Position numbers and translations under genes: made by a program
The notes under the pieces: generated by a model
The model's input: the letters and a program-made list of their open reading frames with translations, nothing else
What the model was told of the DNA's origin: nothing
The model's database searches: none
Assembly (NCBI GenBank): GCA_963666055.2
Contig: CAXWPH010000015.1
Location: 224,001 to 288,000, forward strand
DNA from: Acidobacteriota bacterium
GTDB taxonomy: Bacteria; Acidobacteriota; UBA890; WLXD01
DNA: 64,000 nt
Reading direction: 5' to 3'
In this document: piece by piece, positions 15,380 through 61,791 of the stretch
Layout of the letters: each line of letters starts with the position of its first letter
How positions within the stretch are numbered: position 1 is the first letter of the stretch

Positions 15380-15477
15380 TGGCGGAGGGGGTGGGATTCG
15401 AACCCACGTGCCGGGTTTTTACGCCGACAACTCGATTTCGAGTCGAGCGCGTTACGGCCGGACTTCGCTACCCCTCC
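15380..15477 (-). tRNA. tRNA-Ser(CGA)
   Basis: GGAGGGG/CCCCTCC acceptor stem, CTCGA-ctCGAaa-TCGAG anticodon arm, long variable arm, GTGGG-TTCGAAT-CCCAC T arm, encoded GCCA. Confidence 0.97.
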
Positions 15478-25078: not shown

Positions 25079-25126
25079 GCGGAGCAGACCATCCCACTTC
25101 CCCGCCGGTCTGCCAGAGAAACGAAG

Positions 25127-25200
25127 CGCGCCCCGGAGGACTCGAACCTCCAACCTCCTGGTCCGTAGCCAGACGCTCTGTCCAATTGAGCTAGGGGCGC
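25127..25200 (-). tRNA. tRNA-Arg(ACG), CCA not encoded
   Basis: GCGCCCC/GGGGCGC acceptor stem, TCTGG-ctACGga-CCAGG anticodon arm, GGAGG-TTCGAGT-CCTCC T arm. Confidence 0.97.
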
Positions 25201-58174: not shown

Positions 58175-58894
58175 ATGAGACGGACGATTGCAGCCTGGGC
58201 AGTCCATTTGCTAACCGCCAGTGGTGCGATCTGGGGCGTTCTGGCGCTCGACTCGGTGGCGCGTGACGATGCGCGCTGGGCGCTGCTCTGGATGGTGGTG
58301 GCAATGACCGTCGACTCGTTCGACGGGATGCTGGCGCGCGCCGTCGGCGTGAAGAAAGTCCTGCCCGGCTTCGACGGGACGTTGCTCGACGCCACGCTCG
58401 ACTACCTGAACTACGCCGTGGTGCCTGCCTACTTCGTATGGAGGATGGAGCTCGTACCGGTGACGCTCGGTCTGCCGATGGCCGTCGCGATTCTGCTCGC
58501 GTCGGCATATCAGTTCTGCCAGGCCGGTGCCAAGACCAGCGATCACTTCTTCAAGGGCTTCCCGTCATTCTGGAACGTGGCTGTGTTCTACTTGTTCTTC
58601 GCGCGCGTCGACGGTCGTGTCAACATGGCTATCCTGGCGATCCTGTGCGTCGGTGTCTTCGTGCCCCTGAAGTGGGCCTACCCGTCGCGCATGCTCGAGA
58701 TGCGCACGCTCACGATGTCGGTCACCATGCTCTGGGGTGCCAGCGTGGTGGCGATGCTGATCCAATACCCCGATCCGTCGCGCTGGCTGTTCTGGCTGTC
58801 GCTGTCCTACGTGGCATTCTACGCGGCGGTCAGCGTGTATCTGACCCAGAATGCGGCACGCCGAGTGTTCGCGGCGCGGCGCGATCGAGCGTGA
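58175..58894 (+). CDS. pcs: Phosphatidylcholine synthase (CDP-alcohol phosphotransferase)
   Basis: AVHLLTASG, DSFDGMLAR...FDGTLLDATLDYLNY, DHFFKGFPSFWN, FVPLKWAYPSR. Confidence 0.88.
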   Translation: MRRTIAAWAVHLLTASGAIWGVLALDSVARDDARWALLWMVVAMTVDSFDGMLARAVGVKKVLPGFDGTLLDATLDYLNYAVVPAYFVWRMELVPVTLGLPMAVAILLASAYQFCQAGAKTSDHFFKGFPSFWNVAVFYLFFARVDGRVNMAILAILCVGVFVPLKWAYPSRMLEMRTLTMSVTMLWGASVVAMLIQYPDPSRWLFWLSLSYVAFYAAVSVYLTQNAARRVFAARRDRA

Positions 58895-60371
58895 GCCGCG
58901 ACACCACGACGATTGTCAGCAGCCCGCACAGCATCGACAGGGTCTTGAACGGGAACAGCACGACACCGCTGGCGTCGATCATCGGGTAGGGCAACAGGGC
59001 CGGCAGGCCGAAGAGCGGCTCGCCACCGCCGAAACGCATGACGAACGACACCGCGAATCCAGCCATCGACCCGATGCGGTTGGCTCGCCGATCGTAAAGC
59101 GCCACCAGAAGCTGCGGAAACAGAATGCAGTAGACGAAGTCGCTCGACAGGTACCAAAGCGCGTAGACACTCTGTACGCGCAGCGCCAGGATCGTCGCCG
59201 ACACGCCCACCAGCACGATGGTTCGCCGGATCACGCGGGTGAGTTGATCGGCCGATACGTCAGGCTTCCAAAGCGGCCGGTAGACGTTCCAGGCACCCAT
59301 GGATGACGCTGACAGGATCGACGAGTCGACCGACGACATGACCGCGGCTGCGAGCGCTCCGAGCCCCAGCGCCGCGACCCACGGATCGGTCAGATAGCGC
59401 AATACCCACGGAAGGATCAGCGCCGGTTCCGGTGTCGGTACGCCGAGTGCTTCCCAGTCGACTGCCGCGCCGACGATGCCGATCAGCACGGCAGGTATCG
59501 CTGCGATCACACATACAGCTGCCCCGATCAGCGACGCCGTCCGCGCCGCCGCAGCGCTGCGCATCGCCAGCACGCGTTGGAAATAGCCGTGCCACGGCAG
59601 GCCGCCGAAGATCAGCATGAGCATCGAGTCCCACCAGCTCCAGTAGGAGTTTCCCCATGCCGGATCGCGCCACGACCCCCACGCAGGCATGAAGGACGCT
59701 GCCGGCCCCATGCGATCGACGTACGTTGCCCACACCTGGTCGATGCCGCCAAGCGCCTCGGCGGCGATCGGCGCCACGAGCCACAGGCCGCCGACGAGCA
59801 ACAGAAGCTGCACGACATCGGTCAGCGCTACGGCCCACAGGCCCCCGATGAGCGTATAGCCGACCGCGACGGCCGCCGACAGCAGAATGGACAAGGTGAA
59901 GTCGAGATTCAGCACGGTTCCGAATGTCGTGCCCAGCGCGGTGAGGATGGCTGCGCTCCAGAAGATCTCACCGGTCAACGCCGGCAGATACAGCAGCGCC
60001 GCCATGCGTCGCCCAAAGCGCTGGTGCAGCGGGTCGAGCATGGTAGTGAAGCCGTGGCGCCGCATGATGGGCGCGAAGAACAGACCGCCGACCACCATGC
60101 TGAGTGAATAGCCCCACGGCGCCTGCACCCATACCAGCCCACTCGAGTAGGCGGCCTCGGCCGATCCGTTGATGTAGCCGCCGCCGACCCAGGTCGCCGA
60201 CATGGTCAGCACGCCGATCCAGATCGGCAAGGCCCGCCCGGCCAGCAACATGTCCTCAGCGGTGCCGTGCGATTTGCGGCGGGCGGCGTATATCCCCACC
60301 GCGAAGATCAGCACGTAGAACACGGCCATGACCAGCACCGCGCCCCACTGGACGTTCGAAGGCTCAGACAT
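58830..60371 (-). CDS. High-affinity choline transporter-like sodium:solute symporter (CHT1/SLC5A7-like)
   Basis: ATWVGGGYINGSAE, QAPWGYSLS, TMLDP, GEIFWSAAIL, YFQRVL, AAVMSSVDSSILS, LWYLSSDFVY, RFGGGEP. Confidence 0.88.
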   Translation of the reverse strand: MSEPSNVQWGAVLVMAVFYVLIFAVGIYAARRKSHGTAEDMLLAGRALPIWIGVLTMSATWVGGGYINGSAEAAYSSGLVWVQAPWGYSLSMVVGGLFFAPIMRRHGFTTMLDPLHQRFGRRMAALLYLPALTGEIFWSAAILTALGTTFGTVLNLDFTLSILLSAAVAVGYTLIGGLWAVALTDVVQLLLLVGGLWLVAPIAAEALGGIDQVWATYVDRMGPAASFMPAWGSWRDPAWGNSYWSWWDSMLMLIFGGLPWHGYFQRVLAMRSAAAARTASLIGAAVCVIAAIPAVLIGIVGAAVDWEALGVPTPEPALILPWVLRYLTDPWVAALGLGALAAAVMSSVDSSILSASSMGAWNVYRPLWKPDVSADQLTRVIRRTIVLVGVSATILALRVQSVYALWYLSSDFVYCILFPQLLVALYDRRANRIGSMAGFAVSFVMRFGGGEPLFGLPALLPYPMIDASGVVLFPFKTLSMLCGLLTIVVVSRLTLDRAAPRTLGVPHSGSDTR

Positions 60372-60554
60372 CGACCAGTAGTGAACAACGGATCGCATGC
60401 TACGATCCAGCCGGGCGCTCGTTGATTTCGGGCGTCAGGGCAGTCGAGGTACCGAAATCGGGCTGCTCGGCAACAGGTTTCTCACGGTATCCGGAGGGAT
60501 ACGCGTGACGGTTCGGTCGAGGCTATGAGCGGCCTATTGAGCCGGGTGGTAATG

Positions 60555-60780
60555 GGAGCCGCCGATACGGACTCGCTCGAAAAGGAGGTGATCTAAGTGT
60601 TATCTGATAAACACGGCTTAACGGAGGTGGCAGCCCCGTAACGGGAGATCCTTCTTTCAGAGCTGAAGGCTCCAGCGTTTATTGGCGCTGCAGAGGGACG
60701 TGCCCCATAGCGGGGAATCCCACTGTCACCGACCAACAGCTATGGCAGGGCCCCGGCGCCGAACGGCGTCGGGGCCTTTG
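60555..60780 (+). ncRNA. Putative structured RNA with a 14-codon ORF (60597-60641); family not recognised, 5' end approximate
   Basis: aaaggaggtgatc SD, GTG...TAA micro-ORF, several stems, terminal hairpin. Confidence 0.5.
60747..60779 (+). terminator. Intrinsic terminator-like hairpin
   Basis: agggccccggcgcc-gaac-ggcgtcggggcctt followed by only a short T tract. Confidence 0.6.
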
Positions 60781-60870
60781 CCTTGATAGCCTCGGGGAGT
60801 CCGTAAGAGTTGTATGCACGGAGTCCCAACTCGCCGTATCCAGGCCCGCCACTCTTCCACCACGGTCTAC

Positions 60871-61791
60871 ATGCAGCGCGCCGAAGTCATCGTCAACCCG
60901 ATCGCTGGCCACGGTGCTCCGATGCGCGTCGCAGAGGAGGCCCGGATCCACCTTGAAGAACGCGGCTGGGAAGTTGACGTTCGACCGACCACCGCGGCCG
61001 GGCACGCGACGGAGCTGGCGCAGGCGTGTCTCGACACCGCCGACCTGATTGTCGTCGTCGGTGGCGACGGCACGGTACGGGAGTCAGTCGCCGGGCTTGA
61101 TGGTGCACCCGTGCCCGTCGGCTTCGTGCCGATGGGCAATGCGAACGTGCTGGCGCGCGAGTTGGATATCCCGCGGCGCCCCGAGCTTTCCATCCCGCTG
61201 CTCACCTCCGGGGAGCCGCTGGCGATCGACGTCGGTCGCGTTGATGGTTTGATCTTCCTGAGCATGGTCAGCGTCGGATACGACGGCTGGACCATCAGCG
61301 GCGTCGACCGGCTGCGTGGTACACGTCTCGGCGGGTGGCTCTATCGGCACGGCGGCTCGAGTGGTCTCTACGTGCTCGCCGGCCTTCCTCCGTTGCTGTT
61401 GAGGACCATTCCGAACCGCGTCTGCATCGAGGCTGACGGCAAGGTGCTGTCTCGACGTTACCCCTCCGCTGTGTTCAGCAACGCCGAGGCGTATGGGCTC
61501 GGCTGGGCGATGACCCCCGGAGCCGATATCCGAGACGGGCGTCTCGATCATCAGGCCAACCGCCGCTCAGCACCGTGGTTCGTGCTCTGGACCATTGCCG
61601 CTGCGATACTGCACCGCCGCGTGCCGGAGATGGTGGCAGAGTACGGCGGCGCCACGTCTTATCGGATCACCGCCAAACGGCCGTTCCGTTGGCAAGTCGA
61701 CGGCGACCCGATGCCGCCTCGGCGCGAGATCGAGATCGAGCTGCTGCACCGTCATGCGCTGATCGTCGCTCCACGCCCGCCTAGCATCTGA
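60871..61791 (+). CDS. Diacylglycerol/lipid kinase family protein (YegS/BmrU-like)
   Basis: IVNPIAG, VGGDGT, PMGNANVLA, QVDGD. Confidence 0.9.
   Translation: MQRAEVIVNPIAGHGAPMRVAEEARIHLEERGWEVDVRPTTAAGHATELAQACLDTADLIVVVGGDGTVRESVAGLDGAPVPVGFVPMGNANVLARELDIPRRPELSIPLLTSGEPLAIDVGRVDGLIFLSMVSVGYDGWTISGVDRLRGTRLGGWLYRHGGSSGLYVLAGLPPLLLRTIPNRVCIEADGKVLSRRYPSAVFSNAEAYGLGWAMTPGADIRDGRLDHQANRRSAPWFVLWTIAAAILHRRVPEMVAEYGGATSYRITAKRPFRWQVDGDPMPPRREIEIELLHRHALIVAPRPPSI

What the first reader, a model, noticed from the sequence alone, without database searches (positions are those of the whole stretch)
60555..60780. Unrecognised structured RNA with a 13-nt anti-16S match and a 14-codon ORF
Seen: aaaggaggtgatc (60581-60593) is the full complement of the usual 16S 3' tail. 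GTG-ttatctgataaacacggcttaacggaggtggcagccccg-TAA encodes MLSDKHGLTEVAAP and holds a second GGAGGTG. The start lies in a gtgtt/aacac stem and the stop in a cccg-taa-cggg loop. Further stems follow (ttcag/ctgaa, cagcg/cgctg, ccatagc/gctatgg enclosing smaller hairpins), then a terminator-like hairpin. It matches no tRNA, tmRNA, SRP, RNase P or riboswitch that I can recognise. Inference: a stand-alone ribosome-binding RNA or micropeptide gene, or a translation-coupled attenuator for the lipid kinase-wecB genes.
Basis: partly seen in the sequence, partly recalled or inferred. Interest (0 to 1): 0.7.

Follow-up and report, generated by a model that had tools for sequence, protein, structure and literature searches.

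The report
Pseudoknotted double ribosome-site mini-mRNA
This is a conserved, single-copy gene for a predicted 300-370-base folded RNA with a long match to the tail of the ribosome's 16S RNA, a 14-codon reading frame and a second ribosome-binding motif just before the stop, so it likely works by gripping ribosomes rather than through its peptide; it is a larger relative of small RNAs already catalogued but unexplained.

Summary
The 13-nt 16S-tail match, the GTG-started 14-codon ORF (60597-60641) and the second GGAGGTG are real. The element is larger than reported: conserved core 60482-60783, predicted start near 60413. It occurs once in 12 of 12 good genomes of the order and in several other phyla, with changing neighbours, so it is not an attenuator of the kinase-wecB genes. 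Changes in the 16S-pairing stretch keep pairing (46 wobble-compatible, 3 breaking). The frame stays open (0 of 129 in-frame stops, about 50 expected), while the peptide drifts. RNA-library contigs cover it. No Rfam family reaches its cut-off. Intermediate members score against Ms_IGR-5, whose actinobacterial members share the same GAG-GTG-x-x-x-stop register (29 of 29). The ribosome-binding site is that of rreB/rreR/CC2171. What this form adds is a 5' pseudoknot domain, partly supported by covariation. Best reading: a stand-alone mini-mRNA that likely binds 30S tightly, is unzipped by rare translation and holds the terminating ribosome. Its physiological output is unknown. The scan has reported this RNA class before in five other genomes. 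Verdict: new variant of a known kind.

The parts
60398..60406 (+). Predicted extended -10 promoter box (TG-n-TACGAT); predicted start near 60413
   Evidence: TGCTA invariant in 10 of 10 aligned family loci. The sigma-70 consensus scan found no site. RNA contigs reach up to 60429. Inferred.
60413..60481 (+). Variable 5' leader, present in the window's family only
   Evidence: Poorly conserved. Partly covered by RNA contigs of X2-X4 and by the loose 5' ends of X6 and X12.
60482..60508 (+). Hairpin P1, start of the conserved core
   Evidence: 11 pairs, 4 with changes on both sides, 94.7% of cells paired in 12 sequences.
60509..60544 (+). P2 (60509-14/60539-44) enclosing P3, whose loop carries the 5' strand of pseudoknot PK1
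   Evidence: P2: 3 of 7 pairs covary at p<0.005 against a tree null; P3: 0 of 4.
60527..60578 (+). Pseudoknot PK1: GAGCG 60527-31 with CGCTC 60574-78, ending 2 nt before the 16S-pairing stretch
   Evidence: 1 of 5 pairs covaries at p<0.005. At least 5 Watson-Crick pairs in 119 of 129 loci, against 84.7+/-4.4 with swapped partners.
60545..60563 (+). Hairpin P4; its loop TGGGA (60553-57) is predicted to pair with TCCCA 60718-22 (PK2), tying the 5' and 3' domains around the ORF
   Evidence: P4: 6 of 6 pairs covary. PK2: 0 of 5 in the column test, but 5/5 pairs in 90 of 125 loci against 60+/-4.5 swapped.
60581..60595 (+). Extended Shine-Dalgarno (SD1): 13 perfect pairs plus G-U and A-U with the genome's own 16S 3' tail
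   Evidence: 46 wobble-compatible against 3 breaking changes in 33 loci found by BLAST or CM.
60597..60641 (+). 14-codon ORF, GTG start, TAA stop (MLSDKHGLTEVAAP)
   Evidence: 14 codons in 32 of 33 loci. No in-frame stop in codons 2-9 in 129 of 129 loci; shuffles give about 50.
60623..60629 (+). Second SD-like motif (SD2, GGAGGTG); GGAGG ends 11 nt before the stop, 8 nt before the last sense codon
   Evidence: AGGTGG kept in 33 of 33 loci. Same register in 29 of 29 actinobacterial Ms_IGR-5 loci. A role in ribosome binding is inferred.
60626..60730 (+). Long-range helix P6b: GGTGGCAG 60626-33 with CTGTCACC 60723-30; would hide SD2 and enclose the stop codon and variable hairpins
   Evidence: 100% of cells paired in 12 sequences, 2 pairs with changes on both sides. 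1 of 7 pairs at p<0.005 in 89 sequences.
60650..60663 (+). Pyrimidine-rich stretch that could pair with SD1 or with SD2
   Evidence: Chosen by RNAalifold as an anti-SD helix. No covariation in the wider set: 0 of 5 pairs either way. Unsupported.
60749..60784 (+). Terminator-like hairpin (60749-60/60765-76) with a weak T tract
   Evidence: 99.2% of cells paired. RNA contigs stop at 60741, 60750 and 60755. Not called by the consensus scan.
60784..60792 (+). Predicted separate extended -10 box for the downstream kinase gene (not part of the RNA)
   Evidence: TGATAGCCT here, TGCTAGGCT in L008-L010. Inferred.
60814..61791 (+). Downstream neighbour: DAGK/YegS-type lipid kinase (context only)
   Evidence: Pfam PF00781.
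58830..60398 (-). Upstream divergent neighbour: sodium:solute symporter (context only)
   Evidence: Pfam PF00474.

Best explanation
It is a conserved single-copy gene for a predicted stand-alone structured mini-mRNA that likely acts through how the ribosome handles it, not through its peptide. Shown: the 16S-complementary stretch, the open 14-codon frame, the second GAGGUG at a fixed distance from the stop, and helices P1, P2, P4, PK1 and P6b (partial covariation). Inferred steps: (1) the RNA folds closed, with PK1 abutting SD1 and P6b hiding SD2; (2) 30S binds SD1 over 15-18 nt and initiates slowly at GUG, as measured for rreB; (3) a ribosome that does elongate would unzip P6b; (4) with the stop in the A site, SD2 lies at initiation-like spacing (8 nt) from the P-site codon and would pair with the 16S tail, slowing mRNA release; (5) the opened RNA is then likely cleaved or refolded, so its level or shape would report translation capacity. 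The downstream target of that signal is not known.
For: Single copy in 23 of 26 genomes of the order and 12 of 12 good-quality ones. A relaxed double-SD pattern hits 66 of 401 phylum genomes once each, with 0 hits for the reversed control. Neighbours vary and are convergent in four loci. 46 of 49 changes in the 16S-pairing stretch keep pairing. The frame is open in 129 of 129 loci; the other two frames are blocked in 72 of 129 each. Codons 2-9 vary at all three positions, and AGGTGG in codons 10-12 is fixed in 33 of 33 loci found without the pattern. GAGG ends 7-12 nt before the stop in 11 of 18 rreR-like, 15 of 45 CC2171-like and 15 of 25 other rre-type ORFs, against 5.4% of 2447 long ORF ends, and in 29 of 29 Ms_IGR-5 loci. 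RNA-library contigs from 5 studies lie within about 60420-60755. rreB co-sediments with 30S, is weakly translated and is stabilised by loss of its start codon (PMC5711450). An SD upstream of the stop slows mRNA release 50-fold in vitro (PMC5737721, passages).
Against: No ribosome binding, translation, strand or RNA end was measured for this RNA; contigs cannot show them, and the runs were picked with this stretch. In a blind all-pairs test no predicted pair reached E<0.05 (best E 1.3). P3, PK2, PK3, P6a, P7, P8, P9 and the anti-SD helix had no significant pair in the targeted test. SD2 conservation may partly reflect the P6b helix. Only 2 of 20 rreB-like ORFs have GAGG before the stop, so SD2 is not universal. 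The plain MFE fold pairs SD1 partly (mean unpaired 0.40), so an exposed SD1 is an assumption that rests on PK1. Step 5 rests on rreB alone.
Confidence: 0.6

Rival explanations
1. It is a decoy that stores or guards 30S subunits (or shields the 16S 3' tail) and is seldom translated; the ORF is only a release mechanism.
For: Pairing spans all 18 tail positions, wobbles included, in 75 of 129 loci (partly forced by the search pattern). Single copy across phyla. Two SD boxes. rreB sits mostly on 30S.
Against: In Bradyrhizobium, 20-fold overexpression of rreB did not affect growth and ribosomes far outnumber the RNA (PMC5711450). No abundance data here.
Confidence: 0.15
2. It is a dual RNA: translation of the ORF frees or processes a piece that acts in trans as a base-pairing small RNA or protein ligand.
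For: A large conserved 5' domain that actinobacterial relatives lack (PK1-like pairing in 5 of 29 against 119 of 129). rreB gives stable 60- and 120-nt fragments.
Against: The conserved letters are mostly explained by internal pairing or 16S pairing. No target search was done.
Confidence: 0.12
3. The 14-residue peptide is the functional product, made at a low, tightly set rate.
For: The frame and its length are under selection. Codons 7 and 8 show synonymous variation for Gly and Leu. E-V-A/V recurs up to Actinobacteria. Hahn et al. describe RreB and RreR as conserved within their clades.
Against: Residues 2-9 vary widely, with no excess of third-position change. The conserved codons are fixed letter by letter. 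Length varies across the phylum. RreB and RreR were unstructured, and RreB overproduction had no growth phenotype.
Confidence: 0.1
4. It is a translation-coupled attenuator for the lipid kinase-wecB genes.
For: Short ORF, SD-like motif near the stop (a feature reported for leader peptides), alternative helices and a terminator upstream of the kinase in the window's family.
Against: Downstream genes differ across the order and phylum and are convergent in L042, L051, L052 and L056. The kinase has its own predicted -10 box. There is no run of regulatory codons, and no conserved antiterminator was seen.
Confidence: 0.03

Closest known systems
Rfam RF02471 Ms_IGR-5 (Actinobacteria sRNA; IGR-5 of Mycobacterium smegmatis, called validated but uncharacterized in bioRxiv 10.1101/2021.12.14.472595)
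   Same: SD1 GGAGGTGRTYY, a short ORF (12-13 codons there), GAG GTG in frame with GAGG 11 nt before the stop in 29 of 29 loci, a downstream CAGTCACC-type partner strand, and a terminator. 8 of 12 members of this family tested score 24-40 bits on the model. In 3 of 4 non-actinobacterial genomes the model's only genome-wide hit is this element.
   Different: The window's RNA does not score on the model. Ms_IGR-5 loci have a -10 box 15-17 nt before SD1 (29 of 29), hence no 5' pseudoknot domain; they use ATG/TTG/GTG at 10-13 nt spacing rather than GTG at 7-8 nt.
rreB (Bradyrhizobiaceae) and rreR (Rhodobacterales) small mRNAs, Hahn et al. 2016, PMC5711450
   Same: Extended 16S-tail complement running into a GTG start, a short ORF (14 and 18 codons), stand-alone unit, context not conserved between clades. 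rreR-like ORFs also carry GAGG or GGGG before the stop.
   Different: About twice the length (165 nt for rreB), with a 5' pseudoknot domain. The window's match is 13 perfect nt (15 with a wobble), not 16-17 perfect. No peptide similarity. Reported there only from Alphaproteobacteria.
Rfam RF01867 CC2171 (Caulobacter sRNA)
   Same: Same 5' ribosome-binding motif and GUG. 7 of 20 metagenome loci carrying that motif pass its cut-off, so CC2171 is an rre-type RNA. The ORF pairs with the 3' part and a terminator follows.
   Different: The window scores 12.5 bits against a cut-off of 75, only over the SD motif and terminator. CC2171-like ORFs are mostly 21-25 codons.
tmRNA
   Same: Similar size, pseudoknots around a short internal ORF, stop codon in a hairpin loop (resemblance recalled, not from a call).
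   Different: No tRNA-like domain; it has its own SD and start codon; the genome has a normal tmRNA.

Membership tests
Ms_IGR-5 (RF02471) | CM score at or above the gathering cut-off (45 bits) | tested here: not met
   No hit at the window at E<=10 or in the genome search. Related members reach 24-40 bits.
Ms_IGR-5 (RF02471) | Core motifs: SD1, short ORF, GAGGUGG 11 nt before the stop, partner strand before the terminator | tested here: met
Ms_IGR-5 (RF02471) | Transcript starts just before SD1 (about 185 nt, no 5' domain) | tested here: not met
   Conserved domain of about 100 nt upstream. TAnnnT close to SD1 in 4 of 33 loci here against 29 of 29 in Actinomycetes.
rre small mRNAs (rreB/rreR) | At least 16 nt of perfect complementarity to the 16S 3' end, ending in the G of the GTG start | tested here: not met
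   Window: 13 perfect, 15 with one G-U, and an extra A before GTG. Many homologs pair over 16-18 nt when wobbles count (99 of 129).
rre small mRNAs (rreB/rreR) | Short ORF with GTG start directly after the extended SD | tested here: met
rre small mRNAs (rreB/rreR) | Stand-alone transcript with own promoter and terminator | tested here: inconclusive
   Predicted -10 box and hairpin; RNA contigs confined to the element, but contigs give no ends or strand.
rre small mRNAs (rreB/rreR) | Co-sediments with 30S, weak translation, start-codon-dependent decay | not testable with these tools
   Needs gradients, reporters and half-life assays.
CC2171 (RF01867) | CM score at or above 75 bits | tested here: not met
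   12.5 bits; no match in the genome at E<=0.1.
tmRNA | tRNA-like domain and resume codon without SD or start | tested here: not met
   ARAGORN and Rfam negative in the window; tmRNA lies at G000:C15:77033-77387.
Leader-peptide attenuator | Conserved same-strand downstream operon linked to the leader codons | tested here: not met

The most novel reading that the evidence does not exclude
rreB, rreR, CC2171, Ms_IGR-5 and this RNA are one old, multi-phylum class of ribosome-directed RNAs, a counterpart for the ribosome of what 6S RNA is for RNA polymerase: one SD box loads the 30S and a second holds it at the stop. In this lineage a pseudoknotted 5' domain clamps the ORF into a loop and docks on the 30S platform, so one subunit could be kept and recycled on the same RNA.
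Probability: 0.2. Interest if true: 0.85.

Novelty: new variant of a known kind. Interest (0 to 1): 0.52.

Why it matters
Three separately catalogued, unexplained small RNAs (rre, CC2171, Ms_IGR-5) and this one share a design: a very long SD, a disposable short ORF and, in most groups, a second SD placed for the terminating ribosome. That gives a concrete, testable function for RNAs present once per genome in several phyla, including culturable Streptomyces, Mycobacterium smegmatis and Caulobacter. The form here adds a pseudoknotted domain beside the SD, which would be a natural cryo-EM target for how structured RNA docks on the bacterial 30S. The ten literature searches run here found no paper that links these families or describes the second SD or the 5' domain (listings only for most hits; one search was on recycling).

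Tried and rejected
Rfam at gathering score and at E<=10: no family. tRNA and tmRNA: none at the site. The promoter/terminator consensus scan missed both predicted signals. BLAST of relatives gave 16 of 61 genomes; 12 are the element, and the 4 of 11 weaker loci I printed were unrelated. The CM phylum search gave 29 of 151 genomes; the hits in 4 genomes (L060-L063) and a second hit (L064) were spurious on inspection. Two of 104 GTDB pattern hits lacked the SD and were dropped as false (L068, which has an in-frame stop, and L093); L059 was dropped for an ambiguous start, and 7 duplicates were removed before the counts. The RNAalifold alternative (anti-SD helix and 5'-3' helix) got no covariation support, so a two-state switch of SD1 is not claimed. 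The blind all-pairs covariation test was not significant for any predicted pair; its only E<0.05 pair lies at the alignment's ragged terminator end. Flanking genes had no near-identical RNA contigs, but lack of cover is not evidence, and runs with small word shares that I did not lay (X5, X7, X8, X10, X11, X13, X14) were not used. Viral scan with the family pattern: 6 hits, all glycine-rich repeats without the element. Of 52 neighbour ORFs given to Pfam, 30 had no hit, so those neighbours are unnamed. No protein homology search or fold was run: the peptide is below the tools' size limits. The original IGR-5 paper (Li et al. 2013) was not found or read; the supplement of PMC5711450, which holds its wider alignments, was not read and may list further rre lineages.

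Full report
Observation. The motif AAAGGAGGTGATC lies at 60581-60593. The genome's own 16S gene ends in its exact complement at G000:C15:2217330, and these are the only two copies. With one G-U the duplex is 15 nt. The ORF runs from GTG 60597 to TAA 60641, and a second GGAGGTG lies at 60623-60629. By duplex energy the site ranks only 17 of 1046 GGAGGTG sites, so the motif alone proves little. The region folds better than shuffles (z -3.9; z -4.5 for 60477-60783). Rfam gives nothing at gathering score and only weak hits at E<=10, one being CC2171 over the SD motif (12.5 of 75 bits). It is not a tRNA or tmRNA. It sits between a divergent sodium:solute symporter and a lipid kinase followed by wecB.

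Extent. BLAST of 61 genomes found the element in 12, the window's included. A TGCTA box at 60398 is invariant in 10 of 10 family loci, which predicts a start near 60413. Four RNA-library runs from three studies each hold one contig of 242-266 nt within 60429-60741. Three more RNA runs hold a close variant: contigs of 329 and 320 nt ending at 60750 and 60755, and one of 181 nt, while a run of unrecorded kind spans the whole stretch and may be the source DNA. The runs were selected with this stretch, and contigs give neither strand nor ends, so this is a hint of a discrete transcript, not proof.

Distribution and context. A covariance model of the core found one strong copy in 23 of 26 genomes of the order, 12 of 12 good-quality ones. 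It hit 29 of 151 phylum genomes, four of them spuriously. A relaxed double-SD pattern hit 66 of 401 phylum genomes, once each, with no hit for the reversed control. A GTDB pattern scan stopped at 104 loci; 99 have GGA and 3 have GGG before the pattern although this was not asked for, and 2 are false. Their record titles name Acidobacteriota (Thermoanaerobaculia, Vicinamibacteria), Binatia, Myxococcota, Nitrospirota, Krumholzibacteriia and Latescibacteria. Of 80 of these loci given to the model, 73 matched at E<=0.1 and 50 above 45 bits. The window's organism is therefore probably an Acidobacteriota. The kinase follows only within the window's family. Elsewhere the downstream gene is an M20 peptidase, a PALP enzyme, a histidine kinase, a DUF, or a convergent DHDPS, SDR or PepSY gene; 30 of 52 neighbour ORFs had no Pfam hit. 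This rules against a cis-attenuator.

What is under selection. In 33 loci found without the pattern, 46 of 49 changes in the 16S-pairing stretch are A>G or C>T, which keep pairing as G-U. The ORF has 14 codons in 32 of these 33; across the phylum it varies by a few codons. No in-frame stop occurs in codons 2-9 of 129 distinct loci; shuffles give 50.3+/-5.4 loci with a stop and the other frames 72 each (three loci and seven duplicates dropped; loci are related, so not independent). Residues 2-9 vary freely, with similar entropy at all codon positions. AGGTGG in codons 10-12 is fixed in 33 of 33 loci found without the pattern. So the act of translation seems selected, the peptide much less.

Structure. 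On 12 sequences my structure pairs 92.5% of cells against 89.4+/-0.4 for shuffles and 42-45% when slid. On 89 sequences with a home-made tree-aware null, P4 has 6 of 6 pairs covarying at p<0.005, P2 3 of 7, pseudoknot PK1 1 of 5 and the long-range helix P6b 1 of 7. P3, PK2, PK3, P6a, P7, P8, P9, the anti-SD helix and the alternative 5'-3' helix have none. In a blind all-pairs test the predicted pairs rank near the top, but none reaches E<0.05. Register-free counts favour both pseudoknots: PK1 at least 5 pairs in 119 of 129 loci against 84.7+/-4.4 swapped; PK2 5/5 in 90 of 125 against 60+/-4.5. These controls do not remove relatedness. The distant members keep the layout with different letters, for example CGGCG/CGCCG for PK1 and CTGGG/CCCAG for PK2.

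Relatives. Hahn et al. (PMC5711450; parts 1-4 of 6 read, supplement not) describe rreB and rreR in Alphaproteobacteria: a 16-17 nt 16S complement ending in a GTG, 14 or 18 codons, bound to 30S, weakly translated, more stable without the start codon, and no growth effect on overexpression. By my regex classes these are 20 rreB-like, 18 rreR-like, 45 CC2171-like, 9 of this family and 25 others. Seven of 20 loci tested pass the CC2171 cut-off. Unexpectedly, 8 of 12 members of this family tested score 24-40 bits on Ms_IGR-5 (cut-off 45), and in 3 of 4 such genomes this is the model's only hit. Ms_IGR-5 was found in 30 of 41 Actinomycetes genomes (one unpublished genome included in that tally only). 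In the 29 examined, the ORF ends in the same GAG-GTG-x-x-x-stop register, but a -10 box lies 15-17 nt before the SD and PK1-like pairing is seen in only 5. IGR-5 is described as expressed and uncharacterized (passages of 10.1101/2021.12.14.472595, PMC10454040, PMC8079986 and PMC8780764); CC2171 likewise (passages of 10.1101/2022.01.24.477521). The window's RNA itself fails both Rfam cut-offs, so it is a relative, not a member.

The second SD. GAGG ends 7-12 nt before the stop in 11 of 18 rreR-like, 15 of 45 CC2171-like and 15 of 25 other ORFs, but only 2 of 20 rreB-like; the control is 5.4% of 2447 long ORF ends and shuffle means of 0.2-1.5. Here it ends 8 nt before the last sense codon, the same spacing as SD1 to the start. 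An SD 9-14 nt upstream of a stop raises mRNA affinity 7-fold and slows release 50-fold in vitro (PMC5737721, abstract and passages). Neighbouring P6b pairs change compensatorily while AGGTGG does not, which suggests a second constraint. That this constraint is the 16S tail is inference.

Mechanism and rivals. The likeliest reading (0.6) is a closed mini-mRNA that binds 30S tightly, initiates rarely, is unzipped by the ribosome and holds it at the stop, with turnover or refolding as the read-out. Rivals: a 30S decoy (0.15), a translation-released trans-acting piece (0.12), a functional peptide (0.1), and an attenuator (0.03). No binding or translation was measured here.

Novelty. New variant of a known kind. 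The 5' pseudoknot domain, the link to Ms_IGR-5 and the second SD were not found in print in my searches. The scan's own notes report this RNA class in five other genomes. I had stated the rre reading before and found the second SD and the Ms_IGR-5 link. Those notes agree, but they are not independent support.

Noticed in passing
window 60784-60792: A conserved extended -10-like box right after the terminator suggests that the lipid kinase gene has its own promoter; TGCTAGGCT in L008-L010.
   Followed up: partly
G000:C1:73154-73185 (outside the window): A 17-nt perfect complement of the 16S tail, the best in the genome after the 16S gene itself, followed directly by its own complement so that it would sit in a hairpin.
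   Followed up: no
L038, L041, L042: In several genomes of the sister family the RNA lies directly downstream of a GreA/GreB-family gene on the same strand.
   Followed up: no
G057:C61:90025-90079, G040:C22:76195-76248, G317:C47:9088-9141; L203, L262, L267: Other double-SD mini-ORF types with ATG starts or 12-13 codons; L203 and L262 have promoter-like boxes right before the SD, so they seem to lack the 5' domain. L262 passes the Ms_IGR-5 cut-off.
   Followed up: partly
L329, L330, L332, L336, L341, L343, L345: Seven of 17 viral-collection contigs with the rre ribosome-binding site carry rreB- or CC2171-like ORFs; they may be host DNA beside prophages.
   Followed up: no
L066, L086, L090, L121, L166: Record titles (Fibrobacteraceae, Spirochaetales, Alphaproteobacteria, Enterobacteriaceae) do not fit the sequence type of these loci, which resemble the Latescibacteria, Myxococcota or Binatia forms; labels or bins may be wrong.
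   Followed up: no
L090, L094, L107, L119 and other Myxococcota-type loci: The stretch after the stop (ccgaat) complements the end of SD1 and the start codon, a clade-specific way to hide the start (by eye).
   Followed up: no
window 15380-15477 and 25126-25200, minus strand: tRNA-Ser(cga) and tRNA-Arg(acg) genes.
   Followed up: no
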